Shown in pieces: positions 3,379 to 64,000 of a stretch of 64,000 nucleotides of DNA. The translations under genes were made by a program, and so were the position numbers. Origin of the DNA: Eledone cirrhosa (lineage: Eukaryota). A model generated the notes under the pieces. It saw nothing but the letters and a program-made list of their open reading frames with translations, searched no databases and was not told the origin of the DNA. Positions within the stretch are counted from its first letter, which is position 1. The number at the start of each line of letters is the position of its first letter. The DNA is taken from assembly GCA_964016885.1 (NCBI GenBank), contig OZ024751.1, forward strand, positions 3,968,001-4,032,000, read 5' to 3'.

Positions 3379-3433
3379 TATATATATATATATATATAAT
3401 ATAAAATCAAAAGATGGTTAAAAGAGTTCCATG

Positions 3434-3494
3434 TATTTTATTATGCGCATTTCAAAAACAAATATCATCATTTGCGTTCTCATCAGATAAAATA
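3434..3494 (-). ncRNA. Type I hammerhead ribozyme motif (palindromic stem III)
   Basis: tattttat-CTGATGA-stem II-GAAA-TGCGCA-TA-ataaaata; 8-bp stem I. Confidence 0.8.
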
Positions 3495-5628: not shown

Positions 5629-5630
5629 AA

Positions 5631-5688
<58 letters not shown>

Positions 5689-6603: not shown

Positions 6604-7389
6604 GTTCTTTGAGTCTCAGTCATTGATATTATTTAACTGGAAAGTTTGTTGAAATGAATATCAAGCCACTACCTGCAGCCTCAGACATTCAGGACGTATC
6701 GGAGGGTTCTTTCTGTTCCCAGCAAGCATGCCTTTTGAAGTGTTAAAAAAAACAGGGCTTCTTCTTTAACCATCCTTGGAAACTCTTTGAGATAGTACCT
6801 AGTGCACCTATGACAATCAGGACGACCTTGATCTCATGGCAGTTCCAAATCCTTTTTAACTCCCACTTTAAATCCTGGTATCGGTTAATTATCTCCCTCT
6901 CCTTCTCTTGCACTCTCGTGTCAAATGGGCAGACTACATCTACAATCAGGCACAATCTTTTTTCCTTGTCCAAAACCACCAGGTCAGGCCTGTTGCGTTC
7001 TAATTTCTTGTCCGTCTGTATCCTAAAATCCCATACCACCTTCACCTGATCGTTTTCTATCACCGACTCTGGCTTATGCTAATATGGTAAATTATTTACT
7101 TTGCATAGATGCCAGTGGATCACCCTGCCTATCACATCATGTCTCCAGCCTTTATAGTGTGTCTGGGCTAGGTGTTTACACTCGGATACGATGTGAGCCA
7201 CAGTCACCTCTCTCTCTCTCCACAGATCCTACACAGTGAGCTAGACTCCTCCTTGTCAATATGGTGTTTCACCCACTTCGTTCTGAGGGCCTGCTCTTGC
7301 GCAGCTATTAGCATTCCTTCTGTAGCCTTTTTAAGGTCTCCTCTTTTTAACCAGTTCCATGTCTGTGGATCTCTGAATTCCGTTTTCTT
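6604..7389 (-). mobile_element. R4/Dong-like RLE LINE family A, 5'-truncated
   Basis: Reverse-complement match to 35760-36552; RPDLVVLDK..VDVVCPFD RLE motif; flanked by (ATT)n. Confidence 0.9.
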
Positions 7390-7414
7390 AAAATTATTAT
7401 CATTATTATTATAT

Positions 7415-7631
7415 GGCGGTGGATTGGCAGTATCGGTAGAGGGTCGGACACCATGCTTTGCAGCATAGAATTACGGCTCTTTATGATCTGAGTTCAAATC
7501 CTGCCGAGGTTAACTTTGCCTTTCATCCTTACGGGGTCGATAAAATAAAGTACCAGTCATGCACTGGGGTCTATTTAATCGACTTTCCCCTCCCCCAAAA
7601 TTGCTGGTCTTGTGCCTATATAAGAACAAAT
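7415..7631 (+). mobile_element. tRNA-derived SINE with Tx1-like tail (family S1)
   Basis: A-box-like tggcagtatcgg, B-box gagttcaaatcc, central cctttcatccttacggggtcgataaaataaagtacca (resembles the Meta domain). Confidence 0.85.
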
Positions 7632-7716
7632 CCCGCCATCATAATGTTTTTCTTGATGCAAACCCTTTCTGGTTAATTAAAAAAATCATTATTATCATTT
7701 TTATTTTTGAACAATA

Positions 7717-8122
7717 GTTGAAGATTGGCAGAATCAATAGAGCATTGCACATCATGCTTTGTGGCATATTGTTACAGCCCTTTACGTTCTGAATTCAAAT
7801 CCCACCAAGGTTCGCTTCTCCTTTCATCCTTATGGGGTCGATAATATAAAGAACTAGTCACACACTAGGGTCAATTTAATTGACTTTCCACTCCCCAAAA
7901 TTGCTGGCCTTGTGCCTAAATAAGAAACCATTATTATTACTATTGAACAAGGTATTATTGCGGTATTTAGATACAGCTCATTGCATTTTGAGTTCAAATC
8001 CCACTTTGTTTAGCTTTTCAAATAAATACCAGTAAATAAAATCAAGCGCCAGTAATGTACTGGGGTCAATTTTCCCATTCCCTTCAAATTGCTGGCCTTG
8101 TGCTAAAAGTAGAAACGATTAT
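7717..8122 (+). mobile_element. Two further tandem S1 SINE copies (about 7717-7930 and 7950-8122)
   Basis: Same B-box, core and tail ttgctggccttgtgc..agaaac-(ATT)n. Confidence 0.8.
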
Positions 8123-8123
8123 T

Positions 8124-8270
8124 GCCACCACATGTAGGACTGATCCACCTTTCAGCCAGTGGACAGCTGCTGTCACATGTAGGACAGATCCAACTATCAC
8201 ATATAGGACAGATCCAGCTACCACATGTAGAACTGATCCAGCTACCACATGTAGAACAGATCCAGCTATC
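8124..8270. repeat. 24-bp minisatellite (gctaccacatgtagaacagatcca)
   Basis: About 5 degenerate units. Confidence 0.85.
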
Positions 8271-9156
8271 ACCTTCTTTTGTCTGGTAGCTATGGTAATG
8301 GAAGCTGTATGGTGGACATGTCTAAAAGGATTGAGGACACAAATCTTCCCCTCTGGCCAAGCCCTCACCTTCCTCTTCATATTCCACTTGAAGAGGAAGG
8401 TGAGAGTAGAAAGGGAGGTGTTACTTTCTAGTGGGTTTTATGAAAGATGGGTGAGATTGATGTAACAGAAAGAATTTAATCTGAATATGCTTTCCTAAGT
8501 AGGAGGAAGGAAACTAGGAAGGGGCACTTTCTCTGGCTGTGAGATAACAGAGTGACCCAGGGTTTTGTGTGGGGTTCTCCCTAGAATTACTTTATAACTG
8601 ATGAGGCTGAATGGGCCTACTCTGACTATGTTTTTCTAAGTAGGAGGAAGGAAACTAGGAAAGGGCACTTTTAATGCAGGTGAAGTAACAGAGTAATCTG
8701 GGGCTTTGTGTGGGGTTTCTGCCTGTGGTTACTCGAAAGTGCAGTCCCCCACTCTCCACTATTAGTTACAGGTCCTTGTTCACATTCATTATTGCTAATG
8801 TTTTTCATTATATATATTTAATACAAATTTCATTAGGGTGGTAGATTGGCAGAATTGGAAGAGTCTTGGAGAAAATGCTTTGCGGTATTTATTCTGGTTT
8901 TTTACATCCTGAGTTGAAATCCTGCCAAGGTTTACTTTGCCTTTCATCCTTTCAGGATCGATAAAATAGAGTACCAGTCACGTAATGACCCCCCTCCCCT
9001 CCCCACCACCAGAAACAGTTATAAATTTCATTATTATTATCCCTATTTTCTCTTCAGTGATGTCCACTTTCCTTCCCTCGATGTAAACCCCTGTTGTATT
9101 CTTTTGTCCTTGTACTGTCCCTAATGTCTTGAAGCCTTGTGGCCAATAAAAGAAAT
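8271..9156 (+). mobile_element. Older Tx1-clade LINE 3' end with duplicated 3' UTR, interrupted by an S1 SINE at 8836-9022
   Basis: FFCLVAMVMEAVWWTCLKGL..FHLKRKVRVEREVL matches the ORF2 C-terminus near 27229; ends ccttgtggccaataaaagaa-(ATT)n. Confidence 0.8.
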
Positions 9157-18311: not shown

Positions 18312-18960
18312 AAGATCAAAAGATGGTTAAAAGAGTTCCATGTATTTTATTATGCGCATTTCAAAAACAAATATCATCATGCGATGACATTTGCGTTTTC
18401 GTCAGATAAAATAGGAAGGTTAAAAAACACTTGTAAATGGTGGAGTTTTAAATCAACATATGAAAAGTAGATTTAGATTGATGTGTGATATTGGGAAAAA
18501 AAAAATTGAGGGGGGGGGGGGTGAAAAAGAGGAGGAGATGAGAGTAAAGAATGGAGGGGGAGGAGTATAAGGAAGGATGAGATTAGGAGGAGAGATGGGT
18601 GATAGAGAGAGAGAGATAGCTTTTATAACTGAGAAAAATATATTGTTTTACAGAGAGAGGTTAAAAAACCGTTGGAAGATAATATATAAATTAAAAGAAT
18701 TTGAAAATTAACGAAGAGAAAAATTTTAGAATAATGTTAAATTAAGGTTTGTATATTGAAGGGTTTAATAATATGTGCGATGAAAAGAAATTGTTAATAT
18801 GTATTAAGAATAATGTTTAAGGGTTTAATAATATGTGCGATGGAAAGAAATTGTTGATATGTATTATTAAAAAAATATAAAAATATAACAATAGTAATGT
18901 AATTAAGGATATATTGTGAAAAGAAGTAGAAGAGTGGATGAATAAGTGTAATATGTATAC
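18312..18960 (-). mobile_element. Penelope 3' region/pLTR, second copy of the 3403 family
   Basis: Near-identical to 3403-3560, then a degenerate match to about 3960. Confidence 0.85.
18343..18413 (-). ncRNA. Type I hammerhead motif
   Basis: tattttat-CTGACGA-about 15-bp stem II (aaacgcaaatgtcatc/gatgatatttgttttt)-GAAA-TGCGCA-TA-ataaaata. Confidence 0.85.
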
Positions 18961-20243: not shown

Positions 20244-20475
20244 ATATTTATTAAAATAACAGATTAAAGTTTAAGCAAAAAATCGCTGCTTTCACCCTTG
20301 ACGGGAACGTTTTCATGAACCAAAGTATCATCTTCCTGTTTTCCTTCGGTTGCAACGTTTTTCGAAATATTTACTTCTGCGTTCACAGATTGATTTTTTT
20401 AGTTTCAGAAGATCCTGTTAAGGGTGAAAGCAGCAATTCTTTGCTTAAACTTTAATCTATTATTTTAATAAATAT
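20244..20475 (+). mobile_element. Fold-back pLTR-like unit (about 63-bp inverted arms) with variant hammerhead at 20401-20451
   Basis: Arms 20244-20306 and 20413-20475; agttt-CAGAAGA-stem II-GAA-agca..tgct-T-aaact; second copy at 53175-53435. Confidence 0.65.
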
Positions 20476-20617
20476 ATATATATATATATGCAAAAGTTCT
20501 ATTTAAAATTGTTGGGATACAAGTAAATATTTTTATAACTGATATAAAGCACTCGACAAATTTTTGGAGTAGATATACGATATTAATAAATGGAAACTAT
20601 ATTTATAAAACCATATT

Positions 20618-20682
20618 TATTTCATTATACATATTTCAGGGATACCACATTAAATTATGGTATGCCTTCATCAGACAAAATA
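20618..20682 (-). ncRNA. Type I hammerhead motif (left arm of a perfect inverted repeat)
   Basis: tattttgt-CTGATGA-aggcatacca..tggtatccct-GAAA-TATGTA-TA-atgaaata. Confidence 0.8.
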
Positions 20683-20753
20683 CAATATATAACAAAAGTA
20701 ATGGCTGTATTTAAAGGGTACGTCAAACCTATTTGTAAAACTGTTATATATTG

Positions 20754-20818
20754 TATTTTGTCTGATGAAGGCATACCATAATTTAATGTGGTATCCCTGA
20801 AATATGTATAATGAAATA
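20754..20818 (+). ncRNA. Type I hammerhead motif (right arm of a perfect inverted repeat)
   Basis: Identical to 20618-20682 in the opposite orientation. Confidence 0.8.
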
Positions 20819-20854
20819 AATATGGTTTTATAAATATAGTTTCCATTTATTAAT

Positions 20855-20895
<41 letters not shown>

Positions 20896-27228: not shown

Positions 27229-30200
27229 TCAGAGTACATTCACTCGGGCCATTCTTGCTTCTCTCACCCACCTTTCAACAAAATGCTGGGAAGAGAGCAC
27301 TTCCCTCTCTACTCTGATTTTCCTTTTCAAATGAAATTTGAAAAAGTCAATCAGGGCATCACCGAAGAGGTAAGTGCTCGTCTTCAGCCCTTTCAAACGT
27401 GTCCACCATACTATCTCTTTCGCCATGGCCACCAGACAGATAAAAACTGCCTGCCCTTCCCGGCTAAAGGAAGAGGGCGGGGCAATCCTCACGATGGACT
27501 CAGATGATAGCCGGATCCGTCCTACACGCGACAGCAGGTGTTCGACATAAACCCACAAGTCAGCAATTTTCGGACACTGGACGAGTGAGTGCAGGACGGT
27601 TTCGTCGCCCTGCGCGCATCTCGGACATGCCCGGCTGACGGCACCTCCATGCCTGTAGAGTTTATCCCGAACTGGCAAGGCTCCTCGGTAGCACTGCCAG
27701 GCCAGAGATTTCTGGAAATTGTCCATAGGTCCCGGCCCGAAAGTTCTTCCGAAGAGATTGGCTAGTTGATTTTCGTCGACGCCTAGAGTTTCCCCAAGTA
27801 CGTCGTCGCTCTTCCCCTCCACTAATCCTCTATAGAACGCCGAGGTGGAGTTTCCACCGATCACATTACCCGATTGGTCGAGGGCTGTGAGCGTCTGAAG
27901 ACATTCCAGTCTCCAAGCGCTCCCTCTCGGTCTTCGCTTGACCCAGGACTGCAGCTCTGTCAAGGAAACGAGGTGGGGAAATACGTGTCTAGCAAACGGC
28001 GACCACACCTGATCACCGTCGAGGAAGAGGTGGAGATGTCGTAGCCTGAGCGCGTGTCTGCGCATCATCAGCCACGGCATTCCCAGCCCTCCACGTAGCG
28101 GGTGTTGACAGCAGATGGACCGCCTGACCATCGGAGTGCGTCCCTTCCACAAAAAGCAAAAGAGCAAACGCTCCAGCACAGTCAGGCGGGGCTTAGGACA
28201 AGGTACGATGGTCAGGCGGTAGCAGATGACAGACGCGATGTACGCGTTAGCCACCTCCGCTCGACCTTTCAGGGATAGCTTCCTCTCCGCCCATTTCTGG
28301 GTGAGAGAAGCCACCCTGCTTGTCACCTCGTCCCAGTTTTTGTCCGTCTGGAGGTCCGGACCGAACCAGAGCCCTAGCAATTTAACCGGTCCGTCTGTCC
28401 AGCATCCAACGACGCTGTTGGACTGCATGGACCTGCCTCTCCAGATGCCGAGCTGCAGGCCCACTGACTTTTCCTGGTTGATCATTGCTCCTGTCACCGC
28501 TTCGTATTCTCTTAGTGTAGTGCCGATCGCCTCGATGTGTTTGGCGTTCGACACCACTATGGTGACATCGTCCACATATGCTGACACGGATCTTCCGCAT
28601 CCTAGTTCGCGCGGGACGCCCCTCAACGTCTCCAGTTTGTGCAGTAATGGCTCGAGAGTCAATACGTACAAGAGGGACGAGAGGAGATATCCTTGGCGGA
28701 CAGAGCGCATGATGTTGAACGGTTCCGAAAGGTGACCGTTCACTCTCACCACAGAGCAGATGTTGCTGTGCATGGCAGCGATCCAGCCTCTGAAGACGGG
28801 CCCAAAGCCAGCCGCCCTCAGGACTGCCACTAAGTAACGATGGTCGACCCTATCGAAAGCTTTCGACTGATCTAAATTGATCAAGGACCCACCCGTGCCA
28901 GGTTCCCTAGCTACCCTCTCTACGATGTATCGCATGAGGTGGAGGTTGTCGTGGATGGATCTGTCGGGAATGGCGCATGTCTGCGCCTCTCCCACCAGAC
29001 CACCAACGACAAGCGCCAACCTCTTTGCTAGCACCTTGGCCAAAATCTTGAACTCTGTGTTTAGCAGAGTTATGGGCCTGAAATTATCTATGTTATCCCC
29101 CTTGTTCGGATCCTTTCTCAGCAGTGCCACCGCTCCTCGGCTCACAGAACTGGGAATTCTCCCGTTCTGTTGCCAGTTGCAGTAGACGTCCGCCAAGAGG
29201 CCTCCGAACAAGTCTGGCATCTGTACGTAAAGTTCATAAGGCAGACCATCCAAACCAGGCAATTTACCCCTTGTGCAGCAATTCATTGCCTCCCTTACTT
29301 CAGCGGCTGTTATCGGCTTTTCGCAAGACTCCGCCTCAGTGGCTGAGAGCCGCGGCAGTCCGTCGAGGTAGACACTAAAGTCCATCCCTCGATCCGGCCC
29401 ACCGCTGCCCCCGAACAGCTGAGCGAAGTGTTGCTGAAAAGCTTCACACATTTGCCCGGGATCGAGTAGCATGCGCCCGTCGTGGTCCACCAAAGACCGG
29501 ATCGTGGCTTTGTTGCCATGATGCGCCTCCGCCACTCGGGCCCATTGAACGGCTTTCGTCCCCTCGTGTCTGAGAGCACGCACCCTAGTTCTGACAACGC
29601 AGCCTTCGTGCTTTGCATTGAAGAATTGGTCAAGGGCCAATTTCGCCGCAAGCACGTCGGTCGCAATGCCTTTGCTAAGCACCTTGTCTAATTTTTTAAC
29701 TAGTTCTCCCTCTGCTCTATTTTTCTCTATTGCTAAAGCCTTACTAAACCTAATGGATTCTATTCTAATCGCTCTTTTCAGAGCAAACCACCAATTGTTG
29801 TTGACGATGGCCCCCGTCAACGCCCGCTTAACTAGTTCGCTAATCCGGTCTCTGTAGGCCTTGTGCGCTGGTAAGGACGTGTTTAGCTTCCAGTAGCCGG
29901 GTCCTCGTCTATGAAGCCTATCTAAGTCAAGCACACAGATCATGAATTTGTGGTCTGTGTAGCTGACTATCTTGAATTGTGGACAGCCTATGCTAGACAT
30001 ATCTATTTCCCTACAAAATACTCTATCTAGATATGATCTGGATGACCCTATGCGATTTGTCCAAGTCCACATTGGCACATTCGGGAAATCCAATCGGTAC
30101 CTGTCAGCCAGTTCAAAACGCCTGAGCAAGTTAGTGAGGCTCTTGCACTCTCCACCCCTATCCGCTAATCCCACACAGTCCCAGCGTGCATCTAAGATCC

Positions 30201-30601
30201 CATTCCAGTCGCCCACTAACACTAAAGAGCGGGACGTTCCAAGAAAGGTCTCCAGACGCCGGAAGAAATCAGGCCGCCCTGCTCCTGTCGGGGCATAGAC
30301 GGCCACTAGCCTGAAAGCTTGCCCGTCTCCGCTGGTCACGTCCAGCACCACCAACTTACCCTCTGGGTCTAGGAAGATGGCGAGATCCAAACCTCTCCGA
30401 AAAAGCACAGCAACTCCTCCCCCCGATCCAGGACGGCTGGGAGATGCGTACACATCGTAGCCGCCGAAGATCGGTGCGAAGGCCCGTGCTTCGGAGATTC
30501 TGGTCTATGTTTAGTGACCTGAGGTCGTTGAGCAGGTGACCCTGCTTCCATGACGACCCCAAGCCACGCGCATTTATGCTGCCTATTCTGAGTGAGGTCA
30601 T
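27229..30601 (-). CDS. Tx1 ORF2: AP endonuclease, reverse transcriptase, zf-RVT (frameshift near 30500)
   Basis: SINARGL, VGDWN, SYLDR, YTDH; NFRPITLLN, DQSKAFDRV, RQG, YVDD; CPRC..HSLVQC. Confidence 0.95.
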
Positions 30602-33026: not shown

Positions 33027-36000
33027 CATTCAGTAACCATACATTCGCCAATCCTCGATAAGAGTGTTTAAATGTCGAACCTAAACAGTTCGAATAACGG
33101 TGAAATGGAGACTAGAATGTCATGTGACAGACTCTCACCCAACAGGTGCTCAGCAGCAGGGACCTGGCTGTCAACCAAATACTGCTGGTGTCGGAGGAAG
33201 AAGAAGAAGGAAAGGGACCAGAACCAACTGGACGAAAGAATTGAATAGAACTGTTATGCAATGTTACCTGAAGAGTAACCCCAAGGAGAAAGGCTATAGG
33301 AAACGGATGCATAACATCTGGAACGAGATTGGTCTATTTAAATTAGATGAACAAAAATTGGCTGGGCAGGCTCGGGTAATAAGAACTAATGGGTGGATAA
33401 GCGAGCTGGAACTGGAGGAACTGAGCAGAGAGATTAGCTTGGAGATGGAGAGTGGAGTATGCCAGGCAAACGAGCCAGTGGGAAATGAAGGTGAAGAGGT
33501 CGAGAGAACGGAGGAACCACCCGAAGCAGACAATGATCTGAATGCTGAGATAAATAATACCTGGAACAGAGATACGGCCACTGAAGAGATGAATGCTGAC
33601 GGGCTAGGACAAGATTTGGTTGATATCCTAAACTTAGTGGTAGATGAATTGAACAATGATAGTGGGAGACCTATGAACCTAAGATTTGTAGACAGGAAAA
33701 AGTTAAAAGAAACAACAGCTAAGGTAAACAAAGTCATCCCATACCTTGAGGCGAGGAGCCTTCACCAGTGCAACAATATCCTCAAAGCAACAGCAAATAC
33801 GGTGAGGAAACTACTTGGTATAAAAGCGAGAGGAAACAACAGACAAGAAAGATCAGAGCCTTGGTGGAAGAAACGACTGAGTGGTCAAATCAGAGAAATG
33901 AGAAATGACATTGGAAAGCTTGAGTCCCTACTGAATGGGACAATAAAAAACATAGACACTAAAAATAGACTGGAAATAAAGTACAAAATTAGGAGGAAAA
34001 AGCTAAATATTATCATAGAGGAACTGAAGCAACACATTGTAGCAAAGAGTGCAAAAATCAGGCGATACGAGAACAGAGTCAGTCAGTATAGACAGAACCG
34101 CATGTTCGACAACAACCAGAAGATGCTGTTTGGACAGCTTGAAGGGAAAGAAAGAGGCAACGACTTGATCCCCGAGGCGGAACAAACTAAAACATTCTGG
34201 AGAGGAATATGGGAGCAGGATGTTAAACATAATGACCAGGCAGTGTGGATTGAGACAGTACAGAAGGAGATTAGTGAACAGGCACACCAACAAACTGATT
34301 TGAGTATCACAGTTGAAACTCTTAAGGGGCAGGCCAAAAAACTAACCAACTGGAAATCACCAGGCCCAGATGGTGTGCAGGGGTATTGGATTAAAAATAT
34401 AACATCCCTCCACCCGAAACTGACAACCATGTTCAATGACTGCTTGATGTCAGGTGAGGTACCAGAGTGGTTGACAAAAGGTACCACAGTTCTGATAATG
34501 AAAGACCAAATCAAGGGTAATGATGTTACCAACTATAGACCTATCACATGTCTGTCCGTAATGTGGAAACTGTTGACAAGCATTATGTCTGAGGAAATCT
34601 ACCATCACCTCCACACAAACAACTTGTTACCGGACGAACAGAAAGGATGCCGAAAGAAGTCACGTGGTACAAAGGACCAGTTACTTATTGATAAGATGGT
34701 AATGAGGAATTGCAAGAGGAGACACACTGGTCTTCCCATGGGATGGATAGACTACAAAAAGGCATTTGACATGGTGCCTCATTCTTGGATCACCAAAAGC
34801 CTGGAGATCTTCAAGGTGGCAGATAACATCAGACAGTTGTTGGGCAAAAGTATGAAGTCCTGGGAAACAGAGTTAACATCAACTGGAGAATCCTTGGGAA
34901 GCGTGAAGATCAAGAGGGGTATCTTCCAGGGAGATAGTCTGTCCCCTCTGTTGTTTGTCCTTGCCCTGATGCCCCTGACCAGTGTACTGTGAAAAGTGAG
35001 AGCAGGATACAGGTTGGGAAAGGGAGGGCTTACCATCAATCACCTCCTCTTCATGGACGATCTTAAGCTCTTCGGGAAGAGTGAGAAGGAGTTGGATGTG
35101 CTTGTTGACACTGTCCGTATTTTCAGCAATGATATATGTATGCAATTTGGTATTAGTAAGTGTGGAGTCATTGTGATGAAGAGGGGTAAGTTGAGCAGAA
35201 GTAACGGAATCCAGGTACCAACAGGTGAGATGATAAAGGAAATTGACTCTGAAGAAGGATACAAGTATTTGGGTGTTCTGGAGGCTGATGACATCAAGAA
35301 CAAAAAAATGAAGGAATTGATAAGAACTGAATACATTCGGAGAGTAAGGAGCATATTAAAGTCACATCTGAACAGTAGGAATGCCATAAGTACAGTAAAT
35401 TCCCGAGCTGTGTCTATTATTAGGTACAGTGCGGGAATTCTGAGATGGAATGTTGCTGAACAAAAAGAAATGGATAGGAAGACTAGGAAGCTATTGACTA
35501 TCTACAACATGTTCCACAAGAGGAGTGATGTCGATAGACTCTACTTAAGGAGATCTGAAGGTGGAAGAGGTCTTATCAGCATAGAGGACTGTGTTCAGAT
35601 GGAGAAAAACAACCTACACAAATACGTGACTGATAGTAAGGAGCCAATGCTCAGAACTGTACTGAAGGAGGGGACAATAGGCCAGGGGATGTCCAAGGAG
35701 GAAATAACATCAAGGAGAAAGAGCAGCCTTCAGGAAAAATCCCTTCATAGTACCTTCTTTGAGAAAACTGAATTTAGAGATCCACAGACATGGAACTGGT
35801 TGAAAAGAGGAGACCTTAAAAAGGCTACAGAAGGAATGTTAATGGCTGCGCAGGAGCAGGCCCTCAAAACGAAGTGGTTGAAACACCATATTTACAAGGA
35901 GGAGGCTAGCCCACTGTGCAGGATCTGTGGAGAGAGAGAGGAGACTGTGGCTCACATTGTATCCGAGTGTAAACACCTAGCCCAGACTCACTATAAGAGC

Positions 36001-36552
36001 TGGAGACATGATGTGATGGGCAGGGTGATCCACTGGCACCTATGCAAAGTAAACAATTTACCACATTCTGAGAAGTGGTATGAGCATAAGCCAGAGTCGG
36101 TGATAGAAAACGTTCAGGTGAAGGTGCTGTGGGATTTTAGGATACAGACGGACAAGAAACTGGAACACAATAGACCTGACCTGGTGGTTGTGGACAAAGA
36201 AAAAAGATCGTGCTTGATTGTGGATGTGGCCTGCCCATTCGACACGAGAGTGCAAGAGAAGGAGAGGGAGAAAATTAACCGATACCAGGACTTAAAGTGG
36301 GAGGTAAAAAGGATTTGGAACTGCCATGAAGTCAAAGTGATCCCGATTGTCATAGGCGCACTAGGGACTATCTCAAAAAGTTTCCAGGGATGGTTAAAGA
36401 AAATTGGCCCCTTCACGCTTTTTGGAACGCTTCAAAAGGCATGCTTGCTGGGAACAGCAAGAACCCTCCGATACGTCCTGAATATCTGAGGCTGCAGGTA
36501 GTGGCTTGATATTCATTACAACAAACTTTCCAGTTAACTAACATCAATGACT
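33027..36552 (+). mobile_element. R4/Dong-like RLE LINE family A, near full length
   Basis: Flanked by (AAT)n; single long ORF. Confidence 0.95.
33072..36489 (+). pseudogene. RT plus CCHC plus restriction-like endonuclease polyprotein (stop at 34990, probable early frameshift)
   Basis: NYRPITCL, QGDSLSPLLF, FMDDLK, CRIC..HIVSEC, RPDLVV..DVACP..EKINRY; ORFs 33100-34992 and 34996-36489 are in frame. Confidence 0.92.
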
Positions 36553-37631: not shown

Positions 37632-40600
37632 CCCGTGACCAAGAAATACCGGGATGGCGGCCGGCGGGGAATAGCCGTGTCTCTAGGGGAGAACGACCCC
37701 TCTAGTCTTGGTTGACACTCGTCCTAGAAGTGGTAACACGAAATGATTACCCCTTGGCGGATAAGGATAAAACGCGACAAAATAAAGTAAATGTCTAATG
37801 ATAAAATCTCATACCGGATCGGCCGTCACCCGGGTCAAAAAGGGCCACGTCCCTCAGAGAGGAACCAGACTGGGGTCGAAAAATCAGCTAATGGTTCAAA
37901 CCTTCCCATCACTTCGGAGCTGGAGACCTCCCATAACCTGAATACCCCTACTGTTGGCCCTCCATGCTCACCACCAAGAAATCCAAAGAAAAAGAGAGAA
38001 AAATGGTCAAGGGAAGATAATAAAGAAGTCCTTGAGGCTTTCTACACTGCCATGTACTACCCATCAAATACATCGAATACAGAACAGACATATACGTATC
38101 AACTGGAAAAAGAAACATCCCGAAAACAGCGGCTATATTGACAGTAACAAACTAGCCAATATACGAAGAAATATTGTAAAAAAAAAGTTACTAACTGATA
38201 TAGAAATTGATCAGATCAAGCTATTAGCACAAAGTCAGCGAAGGGAAAATGAAACTCCAAATGAAAACAATGAGATCGTAAATGATAAAGAAATGAATGA
38301 GAATGAACTTGCCAACTTGAAGGATGAAATTATGATCGAATGGATGAAAATGAAAGAATCTGACATGGGGGAACGAGACACCCTCCCTAAGATCCAGAAC
38401 TCCAAACAGAACTAAAAGATAATACACAAGACTAACATAATTCTCAAAAACATTATCATCACAAACAAACTAAACATTACTGATTTAAATCATCTCTATT
38501 ATGCATCGGCTAAAGTGGAGTGAAGATGAAAAAACAAAGGAATTCCCACAAGAAATCTACTTGGCAAGAGAACATCAATCGCCAAATAAACCTTCTCCGA
38601 TCTGACATAGAAATTTTAACAAACTATAAAGTAGGTGAACCTGTTAAACAAACTAAACTTAGAAAAATGAAAAGAAAGTACAGTATAAAATCAACAAGTG
38701 ACATAGACATGCTGATAGAAATAATCAAGCAAAAAGTGTCGGCCAAAGCTGCTCGTATAAGGCGCTTTGAAAAACGATCTAGATTCTATAAGGACAATAA
38801 TATGTTCAAAAACAACCAAAGAAACTTCTACAGAAAAATTGGTAAGTCAACAATAACTGCTAAATCAATACCACCCAATGAGGAAGTGCAAGAATTCTGG
38901 GAAAAGATCTGGGCCGAAGAAAAAGTTCATAATATATATGCCCCATGGATAGACAGATAAATGAAAGATACAGCTCACCTTGAGGAACAAATATGGGAAA
39001 ATATAACAGTTGAACAGTTGCGTTTGGCTCTAAGAAAAACCAGCAAATGGAAATCCCGAGGAAAAGACAAAATACAAAATTTTTGGATAAATGCCTTCAC
39101 AGAGTCTCATGAGCTGTTAGCCCAACTTTACAATGAAATAGTTAAGGAGCCAGAAAAGATACCATCATGGCTAGTTAACGGCATTACATTCCTGCTTCCG
39201 AAGAATGATGAGACAAACAATCCCAAAAATTACAGACCGATAACTTGCTTGACCACAATGTATAACATTTTAACATCAGTTCTAACTGAATATACATATG
39301 ACCACCTGATAACAAATGACCTATTTCCCATTGAGCAGAAAGGGTGTAAACGAGGCTCATATGGCTGTAAGGATCAGCTTTTGGTTAACAAAATAATACT
39401 GGAAGATTGTCATAATAGACACAAAAATCTATCAATTGCTTGGATAGATTATAAAAAAGCATTCGATAGTTTGCCACACAGTTGGATTGAAAAATGTTTA
39501 GAGATTTTCAAAATATCTCCCGTTGTCAGAAGGTTTTTGTCATTCAGTATGAAGACATGGAAAACGACACTCCTTTTGAATAGTGAAACAAAATCACTGG
39601 AAGCTGGAGAAGTTAATATTAATTGTGGAATTTTTCAGGGTGACTCTTTATCACCACTTTTATTCTGCATCGCACTTATACCATTAAGTAAAATGCTCAA
39701 TGAAACAAAACATGGATATAAAGTCTATGACAAAACCATTAATCACTTGTTCTACATGGATGACCTGAAACTATTTGCAAAAAATGATGAACAATTGCAA
39801 GGGCTATTATCCACTGTGGAGCAGTTCAGTGATGACATTAAAATGGAGTTTGGACTAGATAAATGCGCCAAAGCAACGTTCACCAGAGGAAAGCTGCTGA
39901 AAAGTTCAGACATTAATCTTGATCGGGGGAATGTGATAAGAGAACTTGATCAAGAGGAAACTTACAAATATCTAGGTGTTTGTGAAGGAGACGGAATCAA
40001 GCACTCGACAATGAGGGAAAGGATAAGGAAGGAATGTTACCGCAGAGTAAGAGCAATCTTAAGAACGGAATTGAATGCAAGGAATAGGATCGATGCCATA
40101 AACACGCTTGCCATACCAGTAGTAACCTACAGTTACAATGTCATCAACTGGTCAAGCACAGAGATCCGTAGGCTCGATACAAAAATTCGAAAATTCTTAA
40201 CCATGCACATAATGCATCACCCTAAGGTAGATACAGATAGAATATATCTCCCTAGGAAAGAAGGAGGACGTGGGTTAATCCAGTTAGACATTGCGTTGAA
40301 AACTGCAACAATTGGATTATCTACATATCTAAGGGAATCACATGATTGGATGATCAAACTCGTTTTGAAACACGAAAGAATCAAAAGATCATACTCCATT
40401 ACAAAAGATGCACAAAGATACAGTAATGGACTACAAATTTCAGAAGTCCCATTTACTGCTGAAATGGAAAACACAGAAAAAGCAAAGCAGGTAAAAGTAA
40501 CTGCAAAGAAAGAACTGCTACAGAAACTGGCTAAGAAATGGCAAGAAAAGCCTCTGTATGGAAAATACCCAGAACGAGCTAACAATCCTGATGTTGACAA

Positions 40601-41446
40601 AACTTTAACCCATCAGTGGTTGGCATCCTCTGGACTGAAATCGGAGACTGAAGGACTGATTATATCAGCACAAGATCAGTGTCTGCCAACAAAAAATTAC
40701 CAAGCCAACATAATAAAAAATGGATGCAACCCATTATGCCGTGTATGTAAAAAACAACCAGAGACCATTGACCATATAATTTCAATGTGCAGTCCTATAG
40801 CTCCAACCGAATACCTAAACAGGCATGACAGAGCTGCACAATACATACATTGGATAATGTGTAAGCATTTTGACCTGCCCCATCAAAAGAATTGGTGGGA
40901 GCATCAACCACCTCCCATACTTGAAAAAGATCACATCTCAATCTTGTGGAACTTTAGCATCCAAACAGACCGAAAAATAGATGCAAATAGACCTGATATA
41001 ATATTGAAGGACTTTAAAAAGAGGGTATGCCTGCTAATTGATATGTCCGTTCCAATAGACAAGAATGTATCTATAAAAACATTTGAAAAATTGAGCAAGT
41101 ATAAGGACCTGGAGATAGAAATTGGAAAAATGTGGAAATTGAGAACTAAAACAATACCAGTGGTTGTAAGCGCTCTAGGAATGATACCTAAGGGGTCTAA
41201 TGATTACTTATCGCAAATCCCAGGAAACCCGCGTATAGGAGAAATACAAAAGATAGTACTAATGGGAACTGCCCATATACTAAGGAAGATTCTGTCAATA
41301 TAAGTACATCACAAGTCTAAACACCTAAAGATGCATGTGTGAGTATGTATGTTCTTTCTTGAACATGGCGGACCTTGTTGTCTCTTGAGGTCACTGGTTG
41401 TGACTTGGTGATAACTCGTATGAACATAAAGCAAGATAAATGCAGC

Positions 41447-43627: not shown

Positions 43628-44011
43628 TACAAAACACGCAAAACATGTTTATACATGTATACAGACGTATCGTTTTAAATAAAGGACACAGTGTATCTGG
43701 CCCTTCTTTATAAGAAAAAAGGAGTGGTCACCACTGGAACGTCTTTGATTATAGGTCAACTCGGCCAGGGCATGCCTGGGACTGAACGAAAACAACACCA
43801 GGCATAACACAGATAGATTTATAAATATATTTACATAGATTCATCTGGGTTGTGTGTATGCATATATAATTGTATATATACATGTATGTATAAATTCAGA
43901 CATATATATATTTATATATATATATATATATAAATGAAGTAATTCCATCGGAAAAGTCCAGGAAAAAAGAGTGCTCTATGTAGGCAACAGAGCTTAATTA
44001 TTATTAACTTT

Positions 44012-44110
44012 GGTTAACTTTGCCTTTCATCCTTACGGGGTCGATAAAATAAAGTACCAGTAATGTACTGGGATAAGTGCTGGCCTTGTGCCAAAAAGTA
44101 GAAACAATTA
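44012..44110 (+). mobile_element. S1 SINE 3' half inserted into a pLTR-like unit at aattatt
   Basis: Flanks rejoin to match the uninterrupted 25740-25800. Confidence 0.75.
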
Positions 44111-44135
44111 TGTAATAAACAACATAAGGCAATTA

Positions 44136-44195
44136 TTCCATTTACCAGTGGTTTCTTAAAAGCAAAAGGTTTTGCTTTCAATCCTCAGAATGAAA
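44136..44195 (-). ncRNA. Type I hammerhead A
   Basis: tttcatt-CTGAGGA-ttgaaagcaaa/tttgcttttaa (11-bp stem II)-GAAA-CCACTGG-TA-aatggaa. Confidence 0.8.
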
Positions 44196-44307
44196 AATCC
44201 TGGTTTGTTTATTGAATATGGATTCTAAAAACAAAAATGCAATCTATATCTATATATATATAATATTATTCAAAATATTAATAAATGGAGACATTTACAT
44301 AATCAAA

Positions 44308-44379
44308 ATATGTTTTATTATATATATTTCGGAGGTACTGTGCTGTTTTTTCAGTACGTCCTCATCAGATAAAATATAT
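44308..44379 (-). ncRNA. Type I hammerhead B
   Basis: atatattttat-CTGATGA-ggacgtactg..cagtacctcc-GAAA-TATATA-TA-ataaaacatat. Confidence 0.85.
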
Positions 44380-44615
44380 GAATTTATGTATGACATACCT
44401 CAACTGAGTTGATGGTTCAATTTCAGTCTTGGCAGTGATTTATTACAAAACTCAATATTTATATACCACAAGTCAACGCAGACTTTTGGTATATAAATAT
44501 TGAGTTTTGTTGTAATAAATCACATTGTTCTCGGTATGGTGAACTAACTGTTGTGTAACCACTTCTATATATATATTAGAATATAAATATTAATAAAATA
44601 GATGTTCTTTTGATC

Positions 44616-44680
44616 AATTACATTTTATTATACATATTTCGGATATACAACAGTACGTCCTCATCAGACAAAATATAATT
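44616..44680 (-). ncRNA. Type I hammerhead C
   Basis: aattatattttgt-CTGATGA-ggacgtac-tgtt-gtatatcc-GAAA-TATGTA-TA-ataaaatgtaatt; 13-bp stem I. Confidence 0.85.
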
Positions 44681-44776
44681 ATACATGACATACCCTGAGA
44701 TGTTAAATGGTATATATATATATATATATATATGTACGATATTAACAAATGGAAACTATATTTATAAAACCATATT

Positions 44777-44841
44777 TATTTCATTATACATATTTCAAGG
44801 ACACCAAGTTAAATTATGGTGTGCTTTCATCAGACAAAATA
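44777..44841 (-). ncRNA. Type I hammerhead D
   Basis: tattttgt-CTGATGA-aagcacacca..tggtgtcctt-GAAA-TATGTA-TA-atgaaata. Confidence 0.85.
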
Positions 44842-44947
44842 TAATCATTTGTTAATATCGTATGTTTATTCCAAATACTTGTTGAGTGCTTTATATCAGT
44901 TATAAAAATATTTGCTTGTTGTATCCTAACAATTTAAATAGAACTTT

Positions 44948-44996
<49 letters not shown>

Positions 44997-45075
44997 TATC
45001 CCGATGTCTTCCAAAAGTAACGGTTGCATTTTGAAAGGGTATGTCAATATTTATTTATAAAACTGGTATATATTG

Positions 45076-45140
45076 TATTTTGTCTGATGAAAGCATACCA
45101 TAATTTAACATGGTATCCTTGAAATATGTATAATAAAATA
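45076..45140 (+). ncRNA. Type I hammerhead E (inverted relative to A-D)
   Basis: tattttgt-CTGATGA-aagcataccat..atggtatcctt-GAAA-TATGTA-TA-ataaaata. Confidence 0.85.
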
Positions 45141-45263
45141 GATATGGTTTTATAAATATAGTTTCCATTTGTTAATATCGTATATTTACTCCAAATACTT
45201 GTCGAGTGCTTTATATCAGTTATAAAAATATTTGCTTGTTGTATCCCAACAATTTTAATAGAA

Positions 45264-45326
<63 letters not shown>

Positions 45327-45430
45327 ATGCTTTGGGAGGGTCATGGTTGCCAATAATTCAGAAACGAAATATATATATATAGTGAAAGAGTGAAGAATAG
45401 AATAACATGGGCGGCTGTACAAAAAGTGTT

Positions 45431-55601: not shown

Positions 55602-58600
55602 AAAATTAAGGAAGTACCGAAGACAAATAACAAGGAAGGTAAACAAACTTTATTCAGTTGTAGCTACAGAAGAAACCGAAATTATAAATCGCATTTCTCT
55701 TGGAGTTGTGAACTTAATAATGATTTATTTAATTGTTATAAAATGGCAAAAAACAATCCCTCCATTGGCTATATGAACAGAATGAAGCTTCACTGGGACG
55801 AAATGCACCCAGAGCTAAATTATTTCACAGCGAAACAATTACGCCAACAAGCGACGTTTGTTGAACGTAAAAATAAGATAAATATTATTAATTGTAAGTC
55901 TCCCACAACAAACATGTTATCAACAACACGTGCTACAGGTCGCCATACTACTAAACTTCCTAGCAGCCAGGTCGAACAGCGCCTTGAAACAACTATGCCT
56001 GTAAGAAACTTGACACCACGTGTACCATCTAAGTCTACCTCGAATGCTGGGGAAAACACTATCGATAATAATAATAATCGAAGAAATTTGTCACCACGTG
56101 TACCATCCGAGTCTACCTAGACTGTTGTGGAAAATACTATCGATAATGATACTTTTAGGCACAATGCCAGCAAATTACCCAGTGCATTACTGGTACTTTA
56201 TTTTATCGATAATAATCAAAGGTATAAACAATTGAAATTTTCATTCAACGAAATCTTTCAGAGAGAAATTAATTCATATATAAACATTTCTCTTGCTGAA
56301 CGTATTAAAACGACAATGTTTAATAAAAAAAAAAAAATAATGAAATATTACGTGTTATTGACGAAATAGGGGATGAATATTTACGACGGATAAAAACCCC
56401 AACATTTAGGCAAATCAACGCCTGTTTATATGCCCAAGTAACGACAGTGAAGCATTATCTTGGTGATAGCAGAGATATTAACAAGAACAGAAGACCACCA
56501 AAAATACCATCATATATAACTAAAATAGAAAAAAAGATTGCTGATCTACGAAAAAACATGAAACAAACACAAAAAAACCTCACTTCTCACCAACAAAGAG
56601 TGAAAAATAAAATAGAGATGATGTTTGGTAACAGTAGAACCAGAACTCTCCAATATAAGCTGATCACCCTCAAACAAGAATTGAGAGCTGTTAGCGAAAA
56701 ACGCCGATACCTGAAGAAGGTAGATGAGAGAAAAGTGCTTAATAAAAGATTCAGACGAAACCAAACATCAGTCTATAGAGATATGAAGGGCAAAATAATA
56801 AGTGTCACTGAGGCCCCATCCCAGAAAGACAGATTCCTTTTGGAGCAAAATATGGGGTGAAAAGAAGAATTTCAACCAAGATGCAGTGTGTCTAAGAGAA
56901 ATCCTACACTACAACAAAAACATACGAAATAAGTGAGGGTACCCTTGAGACTGTAATAGGAAAACTCCAAGATAAGAAAACACCAGGAAGAGACATGATT
57001 GTCGGCTACTGGTACAAAAAACTGATATTCTATCGGAGGTATCTTAGTGACCTCTACCAACAAGTTCTTAAGGGAGATACACTTATACCAGAATGGTTAA
57101 CATTAGCACAAACATTACAGGTCCGCAAGAACAAAGACACCCACTTGGCAAAAAACTACCAACCCATTGCATGCCAGAACCTGATGTATAAGATGTATAC
57201 AGCCTGCCTGAACCTATTCCTCCAAGATCACTGTGAAAATAATAACATCATCACAGATGAACAAGCAGCTGGAAAGAAAGGGGTTTGGGGATGTGCTGAA
57301 CAACTAACCAACAAAACTGCGATGTCGGAGGTGCGACAACTTAGGAGGAATATGGCTACAATCTGGCTGGACTACAGGAAAGCTTTCGATTCTGTTCACC
57401 ACTCTTGGATGATAGAGGTCCCCCAACTTGCTAAAGTTCCAGACATTATTGTCAGAGCCATAGAGAGGCTGTCTTCTTCTTGGGCTACTATCCTAAGGTT
57501 AAAGACAGAGAGGGAGGACTCCATTTTCACTGCAATATTTTATTCAAAAATAAAATATTGCAGGGGTATATTTCAGGGGGACAGTCTCTCTGCGATATTA
57601 TTCATCTTGTCATTAAACCCCTTGTCCTTTCTGCTCAAGAAATGTGAGGGATACATCATTGGCTCACAGGAGGACAGAAATACGAACCTAACCCATAATT
57701 TCTTTGTGGACGATCTGAAACTCTATGCCAAGAACATGGATGGGATGAAGAAAAATCTTGACCTGGTTACAACGTTCTCAAAGGATATAGGAATGGAGTT
57801 TGGCCAAGATAAATGCTCATACATGACTGTAAAGCGGGGAAAAACAACAACCCAATCTAGCAACATTGTCATCAATGGCCTAACTGTTTCACCGATATCT
57901 GATGAGGACTGCTACAGATGCCTGGCGATAGATGAGAACATATCATCATCATCATCATTTCATCATCATTTCATTTTTACGTCCGCTTTTTCCCTGCTTG
58001 CAAGGGTGGGACGGGAACTGATGCTGGCTTGATTTCTACAGCTGGATACCCTTCCTAACACCAACCTCATTTACAGTGAGTGCTAGGTGCTTTTTTGCCG
58101 TGGCACCTCCACGACCACTTTACAGTGGAATGATAGGGACCCCAGTCCCTATCATCTCATTTCTACAGCTGAGTAAACTGGAGCAATGTGAAATAAAGTC
58201 TCTTGCTCAAGGAAACAACACATCACCCAGTCTGAGAATTGAACTCACAACCTTTCAATTGCAAGGCCAATGCTCTAACCACTAAGCCATGTGCCTCCAT
58301 AATGCATCCTATAATGGTATCTGTAATAAAGAATGCGTAACCAGGGAATACTACACCCGATTAAGAAAGATCTGGTCATCGGAACTCTCTGCGCAAAACA
58401 AAACAGTGGCTCACAATGTGTTTGCTGTGCCTGTCCTAACACCAACGTTTGGAATACTCAATTGGACGATAGACGAAATCCGAGCAGTTAATATTGGAAC
58501 TCGAAAAATACTAAACAACACCGGAAACTTCCACATCAACAGTGACATAGACCACCTTTACTTGAAACGTAAGCAGGGAGGCAGAGGCCTAACATCAGTC

Positions 58601-61796: not shown

Positions 61797-64000
61797 AAAC
61801 ACAAGTAAGCATTAAGAGGAGGATTCTATCCAGGTTTACGACTGTTTCATTGGTAAGTGCAACCTTATATTGTTATACTGCAAGTAGCAGCCACTCAATG
61901 ATAATTGTTGTTGTCCAAATGTCCAAATTTTCAAAATAGTGAGTAAGTTACTCTTGAAATAGTTCTTAATATATAGAGAAAAACATTTATTTGGAATTGT
62001 ATTTACTAGTATAGAGAGAGAGGAAGAGGAATTAGAAAGTGAAGGGACAAACGGAATAGTATAGAGAGAGAGGAAGGGGAAGAAGAGTTAGGAAGTAGAG
62101 TGACAAACTGAGATGGAGTGAGGGGTAGAGGTGGAAGGATTCTTTGATTAGTTTTGATATGTAGACTTCATGTGGGTGATTGTAGTGAGTTAAAGAGAAT
62201 TAAATTGATCATAGTGGGAGGGATGGAGAGAGAGGGGGGGAGAGATAAAGATATATATATATATATAAAATAAAGATAAAAATAATAATGATAAAAATAA
62301 AAGTAAAGAAGGGGGGGGGGGAGAAAGAAGAAAAGAAAAGATAGCCCAAAAGGGGAAGGAAGAAAGGAAGAAAACGAAAAGAAATAGAAGAGGAATGAAG
62401 GAGAAGGGAGGGATATAGGTATTGGTTTTTGTGGGTAATTAAAGGGGTTAGATACAATGAGAGGGTATAAAGTCTAAGTATATGCAGTTTGTCAGTTGGT
62501 AGTAAGAGCTTAAGGGTTCGATTTGCACTTGTAGTGCGAAAACTTTTCTATGGTTACAATAAATTGATCTTTCGATTTTATTGTTGAGTAACTTATTCTT
62601 CGAACTCAAAATGTGGAACAGCTCAAGGTCACATAATCGACAGCTTCTCATACCACTCTGATATGGGGGCGCGTTTGATAATTTTTTCCACTTCAGGGTG
62701 TATTGATGGTTACTTTCCCTCAGTTGCCAGGTCTTGTTTGCAAGGGTAGTTACATAACGATGCTGGGAATGTTTCATTGCGTAACGGTGTGTATACCAAC
62801 AGGCTTTAAATGTATTTCCAGTTGCTCCGATGTAATACCATTTCTGGTTGTCTGATTCCACTGTGCATTGGTAAACCAGGTTAGACTGCATACATTCATT
62901 ATGTAATGGACAGGTTTCAGGTCGGTGGCAGTTACAATTCTTGTCATGGGCAACTTTGGCATTATTGGTGGGCTGCGATGCCTGTACAGGTGTGTTACAT
63001 TTTGTTTGCCTATTAGTGGGTGGTTGTGTATTAGATATTCTGTTGTGTTCAATGGTGATTGTATTGTTATTGTTATAAATTTGTGTTCTGGTGTTGTTAT
63101 GTATCTTTTTAGCGTTAAGCATCTTAATGTGTGCCTCTATATTTGGTGCCGTGGAGTAAGATAGTCTAATAGATTTAGTGTTAAGGATTTTGCTGTATCT
63201 ATGTGAATCTGGAAAGTGTTTATTTATTATTCTAAAGAAGGTAGAGGGTAGGTTAGTACTAAGAGAGGTGTTAAATATGGGGTTATACCAAATATATTTT
63301 CTACTGCGTGACTTGTTTGATTTCGATGTATTTCTATTTACCGTATAATTTATAGTTCTATGCGTAAATGTGTGTGTGCGTGTTTCTGGAGTTTGTGTTA
63401 TGCGTGTTAGTGTGCGCTTTGCGGAGGCTTTCATCTATATATTCTACTCTATCTAAGTGGCCTGCCTTGTCTAGTGCAGTATTGTAGTATTCTGCATGTT
63501 CCTCGAAGATTTGTCGGTTAGACGAGAGGCGAGAGATCCTAAGGGATATGCTGCGTGGAATGGATTTAATTATGGATAGAGGGTGGTTTGAGTTACAGTT
63601 GATGTATGCTAAGTTTTCATTAATCTTGTGAAAAGGTCTTATTTAGGTTAAGCATCGCGTCTAGAAAGTTAACTGTTTTAGTGCTATACTCATACGTTAT
63701 GCTAAGGCCTAGTTTCCCTAGAGTCTTTCTAATATTCTTACGGAGTCTTTCTATGCTCTGGTTATTTAGGTTCTTAACTAGAAGAAGGGCGTTGTCTCTG
63801 TAGATTCCTCCGTGAAGGTCGCTAAACTCACTCTGTAAACTATGGACTATGTAAATACCTACTAAATCTGTGACTTGAGCTGAGTCGTTAGCCCCCATCG
63901 TGATGTCAAAGTTATTTAATCTATCCTTACATTCCCAATAGGTGTTTTCAAATTTAATTATTGTTTTCCTAGCAGCTAATATAATTTTTATCTCGTCGTC
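61797..64000 (-). mobile_element. Penelope-like element (RT C-half plus GIY-YIG plus 3' region), runs off the window
   Basis: MGANDSAQVTDLVG, IYRDN (YRDD), NFLD; CNC..CPL..NLVYQCTV..YYIGATGNTFK..CRLC. Confidence 0.9.

What the first reader, a model, noticed from the sequence alone, without database searches (positions are those of the whole stretch)
44136..45140. Five intact hammerhead ribozymes within 1 kb, four in tandem and in sense with the host pre-mRNA: candidate retrozyme/circRNA cassette
Seen: four minus-strand type I hammerheads (44136, 44308, 44616, 44777) and one plus-strand copy (45076). Each has a full CUGANGA/GAAA core, paired stems I and II and an NUA site. B, C and D have mutually compatible palindromic stem III sequences (UAUAUA, UAUGUA, UAUGUA). 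Predicted cuts at 44785/4, 44629/8, 44319/8 and 44143/2 would release RNAs of 156, 310 and 176 nt. Established: Penelope pLTR and non-LTR retrozyme hammerheads with palindromic stem III cleave efficiently as dimers, and the 5'-OH/2',3'-cyclic-phosphate products can circularise. Inference: this heterologous array (at least three different units, not a simple tandem repeat) lies about 1.9-2.6 kb past the STARD10-like exon-1 donor. Host transcription could drive hetero-dimeric self-cleavage, making small circRNAs or modulating splicing of a very large intron.
Basis: partly seen in the sequence, partly recalled or inferred. Interest (0 to 1): 0.9.

Follow-up and report, generated by a model that had tools for sequence, protein, structure and literature searches.

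The report
Pile-up of Penelope retrotransposon ribozyme ends
Five hammerhead ribozyme motifs lie within one kilobase of an octopus-type gene's intron because several jumping-gene families that carry this motif at their ends likely landed one after another in the same TA repeat, so this is most likely ordinary transposon debris and not a purpose-built cassette for making circular RNA.

Summary
The five hammerheads are real and lie where stated; 0 of 2000 shuffles gave any. The host gene holds too: intron 1 (85.4 kb) of a STARD10-like gene on the minus strand. They are not one cassette. Each is the 3' end (pLTR) of a dispersed, high-copy Penelope-like retrotransposon, from four families. Family A has an intact ORF with the Hydra-clade motifs and resembles the published Hydra-1_Obim. 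(TA)n tracts, Hydra's known target, separate most pieces, and no second copy of the array was found. The genome holds roughly 110,000 such motifs, other pile-ups of 5-7, and 100 listed matches at the C-B spacing. Folding predicts that A cannot dimerise with B-D and that D is trapped by the antisense copy of E, so only the C-B cut (310 nt) stays plausible. Cleavage and expression were not tested. The scan noted PLE hammerhead ends before on other DNA (e1-7858714). Verdict: a new instance of a known kind; low to moderate interest.

The parts
43900..43929 (.). (TA)n tract at the 3' end of element A
   Evidence: 23 of 24 family-A copies have a TA tract within 120 nt of the unit end
43930..44249 (-). 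3' end (pLTR with tail) of Hydra-clade PLE family A; hammerhead core 44188, cut 44143/44142, stem III ACCACUGGU; interrupted by the insert at 44012-44111
   Evidence: 44107-44249 is 100% identical to all three pLTR copies in L119, two of which flank a 710-aa RT/GIY-YIG ORF; 39 other copies 100% identical among 40 candidates scored of 1203
44012..44111 (.). About 100-nt piece of a very high-copy dispersed repeat (SINE-like; label inferred) inserted in the tail of A
   Evidence: 110 hits, 63 of them 80 nt or longer, in 600 kb of evenly sampled genome; other A copies lack it
44261..44473 (-). 3' end of PLE family B; hammerhead core 44368, cut 44319/44318, stem III AUAUAUAU; TA-rich tract 44242-44262 separates it from A
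   Evidence: 92-97% identical to dispersed copies, 2279 candidates; RT and GIY-YIG ORF remnants end about 1.1 kb upstream in L004, L024, L027, L121
44482..44523 (+). Short inverted 5' arm of B, forming the hairpin 44435-44523
44524..44566 (+). Last 43 nt of a fifth PLE family (X); begins inside its hammerhead stem III, so it has no core; ends in TA 44567-44576
   Evidence: 92-98% identical to the 3' end of the element in L124, whose ORF matches the family-A protein at 54% and whose pLTR carries a complete hammerhead
44573..44711 (-). 3' end of PLE family C; hammerhead core 44667, cut 44629/44628, stem III AUAUGUAU; TA tract 44712-44733 upstream
   Evidence: 97-99% identical copies, 384 candidates; RT/GIY-YIG remnants upstream in L110 and GIY-YIG in L106
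44729..44950 (.). One insertion of family D/E: inverted 5' arm carrying hammerhead D (44729-44845, minus; core 44833, cut 44785/44784) plus the truncated main copy (44837-44950, plus), ending in TA 44951-44995
   Evidence: same arm-plus-main layout as L111 and L113; 16 of 24 family copies have an inverted partner within 1.5 kb upstream
44995..45265 (+). 3' end of PLE family D/E; hammerhead E core 45084, cut 45132/45133; antisense to the host gene; ends in TA 45266-45322
   Evidence: 98-100% identical copies, 1853 candidates; RT/GIY-YIG ORF remnants upstream in L111, L113
46751..46906 (-). Coding exon 1 of the STARD10-like host gene; the donor at 46750 opens an 85,405-nt intron that holds the cluster

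Best explanation
The cluster is a stack of truncated 3' ends of Penelope-like retrotransposons, each carrying its family's hammerhead motif, that likely inserted one after another at one (TA)n microsatellite in intron 1 of a STARD10-like gene, where they likely have no selected host role. Shown: every non-TA base from 43930 to 45265, apart from an 8-nt loop, maps to the end of one of five PLE families or to one small repeat fragment. Each of the five families has copies elsewhere with RT and/or GIY-YIG coding sequence upstream of the same end. Family A has an intact 710-aa ORF with the Hydra-clade motifs. From the literature: Hydra elements target (TA)n, EN+ PLEs are mostly 5'-truncated with an adjacent inverted copy, and their pLTRs carry hammerheads with a palindromic stem III. 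Inferred: reverse transcription starts at the 3' end, so even very short copies keep the hammerhead; each insertion leaves TA on its flanks, which stays a target for the next; five or six events at different times built the stack. The motifs would serve the elements' own RNA processing, as dimers. In the host pre-mRNA most are predicted to be idle: A has no compatible cis partner, D would be trapped by antisense E, and only C-B could form a mixed dimer.
For: Dispersed high-copy families: 2279, 384, 1853 and 1203 first-look candidates, with best non-self copies 92-100% identical to single units only. PLE coding sequence upstream of each unit. Intact ORF between two A-type pLTRs in L119 with RWK, DKT, YRDD, CSCRKPDEC, CSLC and CPH, the Hydra diagnostics of PMC8557442. 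By eye it is colinear with the published Hydra-1_Obim protein (23 of the first 40 residues), whose hammerhead stem III is ACCAAUGGU. 90 of 101 family copies have a TA tract within 120 nt of the unit end; 20 of 22 hammerheads in sampled DNA have one within 300 nt, against 28% of random points. Five of six junction probes matched only this locus among all loci held. Identity to the best copies differs by unit: A 100%, E 98.9%, C 98.5%, D 94.5%, B 93.5% median. 22 motifs in 600 kb, about 110,000 genome-wide. Other-family neighbours within 1.5 kb at 19 of 94 loci against 8.6% expected. L228 has 7 motifs in 2.1 kb and L230 has 5 in 1.2 kb. 36 and 100 exact pattern matches at the D-C and C-B spacings, 0 in the controls.
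Against: Four same-strand motifs within 0.7 kb is the extreme among loci seen: none of the 94 family loci or 60 sampled stretches matched it, and L228 and L230 have mixed strands. All five motifs are intact, and 7 of 9 motifs in intron 1 are in sense to the gene; youth of the copies can explain intactness but does not exclude selection. The identity figures come from best-scoring hits and are biased upward, so the age order is soft. No empty-site allele or orthologous intron could be examined. Pfam did not recognise the RT, and GIY-YIG matched only below cut-off (E 0.007) in one protein, so PLE membership rests on motifs, layout and the published alignment.
Confidence: 0.88

Rival explanations
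1. Accidental activity, compatible with the best explanation: host transcription lets C and B fold into a mixed double hammerhead that cuts at 44629 and 44319, releasing a 310-nt RNA that RtcB-type ligase could circularise, at low level and with no selected role.
For: C-B can form 8 of 8 stem III pairs and 6 and 8 bp exchanged stems I. B's inverted arm makes a hairpin in the spacer. The gene is transcribed from this strand. PMC7229834 shows dimer cleavage and RtcB circularisation for animal retrozymes.
Against: The C-B dimer lies 11.7-16.6 kcal/mol above the minimum-energy fold (the model gives no credit for the catalytic core). Stem I pairs of the single motifs have probability of 0.01 or less in context. 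PLE-type motifs cleave weakly even as dimers, and 8 of 9 Xenopus dimers did not cleave.
Confidence: 0.2
2. Host exaptation: the stack was kept because cleavage early in an 85-kb intron tunes splicing or output of the STARD10-like gene.
For: Four intact sense motifs 1.9-2.6 kb after the donor; 7 of 9 intron-1 motifs are sense. Conserved intronic ribozymes in amniotes are a proposed precedent (PMC6765202).
Against: The units are young, near-identical repeat copies, A at 100%. Comparable neighbours occur at many loci. D is predicted to be sequestered and A unpartnered.
Confidence: 0.04
3. A composite non-autonomous retrozyme that moves as a multi-ribozyme unit through a circular RNA.
For: Same-strand type I hammerheads 156-310 nt apart at low GC (0.23-0.28), the size range of non-LTR retrozyme monomers. 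A true 81-nt homo-tandem array of a related motif exists elsewhere in the genome.
Against: No tandem periodicity at the locus. Genome searches with B plus hairpin plus C, with C plus X, and with A returned single units only. Junction probes hit only this locus, except X|C, which also hit L201. TA tracts separate most units.
Confidence: 0.03

Closest known systems
Hydra-clade Penelope-like elements, e.g. Hydra-1_Obim of Octopus bimaculoides (PMC8557442)
   Same: Single ORF with RT then C-terminal GIY-YIG; RWK, DKT, CxCX5C, CxxC and CxH motifs; hammerhead in the pLTR with palindromic stem III (ACCAAUGGU there, ACCACUGGU in A); (TA)n targets; truncated copies with an adjacent inverted copy and a tail.
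   Different: Here at least five families are involved, some with 3' regions of 1.1-1.7 kb, tails longer than 30-40 nt and motif numbers near 10^5. [quoted passage not shown]
Minimal type I hammerheads of PLE pLTRs (PMC4209133)
   Same: Short palindromic stem III needing a dimer, long stem II, mostly dispersed single motifs from truncated PLEs, pairs on opposite strands 100-700 nt apart.
   Different: Here motifs of different families sit side by side on one strand and share a palindrome, so mixed dimers can be drawn; A and D/E lack the usual G10.1-C11.1 pair.
Non-LTR retrozymes (PMC7229834; bioRxiv 10.64898/2026.07.22.740005)
   Same: Type I hammerheads in a row, spacing 150-310 nt, low GC, PLE origin.
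   Different: Retrozymes are head-to-tail copies of one unit and are expressed as circRNA. This locus is a mosaic of different pLTR ends found at one place only, with expression untested.

Membership tests
Type I hammerhead ribozyme | CUGANGA and GAAA core, stems I-III, NUH site, open end at stem I | tested here: met
   for all five; stem III is only 3 bp as a monomer
Type I hammerhead ribozyme | Match to an Rfam hammerhead model | tested here: not met
   no hammerhead family at gathering score or at E<=10
Type I hammerhead ribozyme | Self-cleavage | not testable with these tools
   folding only
Hydra-clade Penelope-like element | Single ORF, RT followed by C-terminal GIY-YIG, flanked by pLTRs | tested here: met
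   family A: 710-aa ORF between direct pLTR copies in L119; B, C, D/E and X: broken RT and/or EN upstream of the unit. Pfam RVT_1 did not match
Hydra-clade Penelope-like element | RWK, DKT, CxCX5C linker, CxxC and CxH motifs | tested here: met
   all five in the family-A ORF; for B, C and D/E only the C-terminal ones or DKT were seen because the copies are truncated
Hydra-clade Penelope-like element | Canonical hammerhead in the pLTR | tested here: met
Hydra-clade Penelope-like element | Insertion into (TA)n | tested here: met
   90 of 101 copies; 91% against 28% in sampled DNA
Hydra-clade Penelope-like element | 5' truncation with an adjacent inverted copy and a tail at one end | tested here: met
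   inverted partner within 1.5 kb in 16/24 E, 6/24 C, 4/29 B, 1/24 A copies; further A pairs at 2-5 kb; tails
Hydra-clade Penelope-like element | Placement in the Hydra clade of an RT tree | not tested
   no named reference sequences were available as tool sequences; comparison with Hydra-1_Obim was by eye
Non-LTR retrozyme | Head-to-tail tandem copies of one unit, each with a hammerhead | tested here: not met
   no tandem array at the locus; units belong to different families
Non-LTR retrozyme | Expressed as linear and circular monomer RNA | not testable with these tools
   no RNA run was available to lay
Host-exapted intronic ribozyme | Conserved at the orthologous site across species, distinct from active repeats | tested here: inconclusive
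   units are 93-100% identical to dispersed repeats; the orthologous site could not be resolved

The most novel reading that the evidence does not exclude
This octopus-type genome carries about 10^5 Hydra-PLE hammerheads, most sharing one stem III palindrome (AUAURUAU, 16 of 22 sampled) across families. TA-targeted pile-ups therefore create hundreds to thousands of mixed-family double hammerheads that cut host pre-mRNAs and release chimeric small circRNAs, a route by which new retrozymes are born. The C-B pair here would be one example.
Probability: 0.15. Interest if true: 0.65.

Novelty: new member of a known kind. Interest (0 to 1): 0.3.

Why it matters
The locus itself is transposon debris of a described clade. 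What it exposes is scale: 22 motifs in 600 kb, about 110,000 genome-wide (Poisson range 69,000-166,000, too narrow because hits come in pairs). PMC4209133 gives about 2,000-9,000 for Schistosoma, coelacanth and Xenopus, with a different descriptor. There is also a young family with an intact ORF and 100% identical ends. This makes the genome a good place to ask what PLE hammerheads do in vivo, whether sense-strand intronic copies are purged, and whether different families cleave as mixed dimers. My literature searches returned no paper on hammerhead numbers in octopus; subscription journals and most supplements were not searched.

Tried and rejected
Rfam at gathering and E<=10: no hammerhead hit; the miRNA hits are the B hairpin and TA tracts, all far below cut-off. 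Expression: no RNA holder listed, which says nothing either way. Empty-site or conservation test: contigs of 4 runs and then 3 RAD-seq runs plus 1 contig run were laid on the locus; the output was dominated by other repeat copies, no listed piece spanned the locus, and no conclusion was drawn. Pfam and PDB searches with the intact PLE ORF gave nothing significant. The protein search returned 1497 relatives at E<=1e-50 among 8000 candidates scored, almost all unnamed. Pfam did not recognise exon 1; PDB gave STARD10 at E 0.00017. The Lunse et al. dimer paper was not read; I saw it only as cited in PMC6765202. Two searches on intronic ribozyme cleavage and splicing gave listings only and were not used. 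Earlier-findings look-ups by place and by sequence were empty. Rejected: chance motifs; a composite mobile unit; copies starting at the ribozyme cut (A-E start 12-105 nt upstream of their cores and X starts 7 nt upstream of its cut). Dropped rows: 7 of 101 family loci had no focal motif passing the scanner and were left out of the 19-of-94 count; some of the 94 overlap or share an insertion.

Full report
Observation. A descriptor scan of the window found nine credible type I hammerhead motifs, five of them at the stated place with the stated strands, cut sites and stem III sequences; shuffles gave none, in 2000 of the region and 100 of the window (a tenth, weakly paired hit at 31603 was set aside and is not found by the tighter scanner). 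Rfam has no match to them. The host is a STARD10-like gene on the minus strand: exon 1 is 90% identical to an Octopus vulgaris protein, the other exons lie 85-107 kb downstream on the same contig, and intron 1 is 85,405 nt. The window is G000:C11:3968001-4032000 of a 3.0-Gb genome.

Each unit is a separate dispersed repeat. Searching the genome with B plus its neighbours, with C plus X, with E and with A gave 2279, 384, 1853 and 1203 first-look candidates, of which 40 were scored each time. Non-self hits covered one unit only: B at 92-97%, C at 97-99%, E at 98-100%, and A at 100% in 39 copies. Of six junction probes, five matched only this locus among all loci held; X|C also matched L201. Mapping the region on long copies divides 43930-45265 into A with an inserted repeat fragment, B with a short inverted arm, 43 nt of a fifth family X, C, an inverted-arm-plus-main insertion carrying D, and E. 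TA tracts separate most of these pieces; B's arm and X are joined directly.

The families are Hydra-clade Penelope-like elements. In 20 longer loci chosen for long shared upstream sequence, PLE coding sequence lies upstream of each unit type. L119 has an intact 710-aa ORF between two direct copies of A's pLTR, with RWK, DKT, YRDD, CxCX5C, CxxC and CxH. These are the diagnostics given for the Hydra clade, whose families nearly all insert into (TA)n (PMC8557442, section 11 read whole plus passages). Its supplement, seen as search hits, lists Hydra-1_Obim with a (TA)n target, a hammerhead with stem III ACCAAUGGU and a protein that is colinear by eye with family A. 90 of 101 fetched copies end near a TA tract, and 27 of 101 have an inverted partner within 1.5 kb upstream. 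Against this, Pfam and PDB do not recognise the RT, and no tree was built.

How unusual is the cluster? Sixty evenly placed 10-kb stretches on 21 contigs held 22 motifs, with 0 in the reversed control: about 110,000 per genome. Of 94 family loci with an intact focal motif, 19 had another family's motif within 1.5 kb and 14 had it on the same strand, against 8.6% expected (binomial P 4e-4; loci not fully independent). A review states that PLEs tend to insert into or next to existing PLE copies (PMC6765202, passages). Exact patterns for two same-strand motifs gave 36 matches at the D-C spacing and 100 listed (possibly capped) at the C-B spacing, with 0 in the controls. Thirty of the 36 were fetched, 24 distinct places; among the 23 other than this one, my reading is 8 clear mixed-family pairs and 5 same-family pairs, with 7 motifs in 2.1 kb at L228 and 5 in 1.2 kb at L230. 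Four on one strand within 0.7 kb remains the extreme of what I saw, so the locus is a tail event of a common process.

Could it cut the pre-mRNA? As monomers the motifs have a 3-bp stem III and very low predicted occupancy. In a double hammerhead both the palindromes and the stem I strands are exchanged. This works on paper for D-C, C-B and D-B (5-12 kcal/mol above the minimum) but not for pairs with A (25-31 kcal/mol). With upstream sequence included, the antisense copy of E pairs with 107 of 117 bases around D (duplex -148 kcal/mol); D-containing dimers rise to 98-100 kcal/mol and C-B to 16.6. These are equilibrium models with no core energy, so they rank options and do not measure rates. 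Published activity is mixed: low for PLE motifs even as dimers or trimers (PMC4209133, parts 1-2 of 4 read), 1 of 9 Xenopus dimers (bioRxiv 10.64898/2026.07.22.740005, parts 1-3 of 5 read, supplements closed), and much improved for axolotl dimers (PMC7229834, passages). The giant squid genome paper lists 235 hammerhead-1 loci (PMC6962438, passages). Seven of nine motifs in intron 1 are in sense, yet the exons found are 74-87% identical to the O. vulgaris protein. RNA could not be examined.

Verdict. The best explanation is serial, TA-targeted insertion of truncated Hydra-PLE ends (0.88). Accidental C-B cleavage is possible (0.2); exaptation (0.04) and a composite retrozyme (0.03) are unlikely. 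It is a new member of a known kind, interest 0.3. The genome-wide load of cross-compatible hammerheads is the part worth pursuing.

Noticed in passing
G000:C3:149688525-149689140 (L210-L216): About nine head-to-tail copies of an 81-nt unit, each with a hammerhead core, stem II and the AUAUGUAU palindrome but stem I cut to about 3 bp: a retrozyme-like minisatellite apparently born from a B-type pLTR.
   Followed up: partly
L119 (G000:C1:319423000-319432999), ORF 5445-7574: Full-length Hydra-clade PLE with an intact 710-aa ORF, direct pLTRs 100% identical to unit A and an inverted truncated partner: a very young family.
   Followed up: yes
L228 (G000:C20:10192214-10195363) and L230 (G000:C21:19457563-19460710): Other pile-ups, with 7 and 5 intact hammerheads of several families.
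   Followed up: partly
window 20468-20884: Inverted pair of D/E-family pLTR ends with hammerheads at 20674 (-) and 20762 (+).
   Followed up: partly
window 3442-5760 (-), 18351-18405 (-), 62544-63994 (-): Further PLE remnants: RT/GIY-YIG coding pieces at 4505-5616 and 62544-63994, and hammerheads with an AUGCGCAU palindrome at 3486 and 18405.
   Followed up: partly
window 44482-44566: B's inverted arm joins the last 43 nt of family X directly, with no TA between; either a template switch between two PLE RNAs or an insertion with deletion. Unexplained.
   Followed up: partly
window 44729-44845 and 45072-45188: 117-nt, 93% inverted repeat predicted to form a long double-stranded stem in the pre-mRNA, a possible A-to-I editing substrate (high editing in cephalopods is recalled, not tested).
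   Followed up: no
window 45323-45381: Two fused pieces of another TA-flanked dispersed repeat with long internal palindromes and no evident hammerhead.
   Followed up: partly
window 27229-30504 (-), 33085-36489 (+), 38961-41303 (+), 56896-58032 (+): Long non-LTR retrotransposon ORFs with RVT_1 matches, the first also with an endonuclease domain; the first three lie inside intron 1.
   Followed up: no
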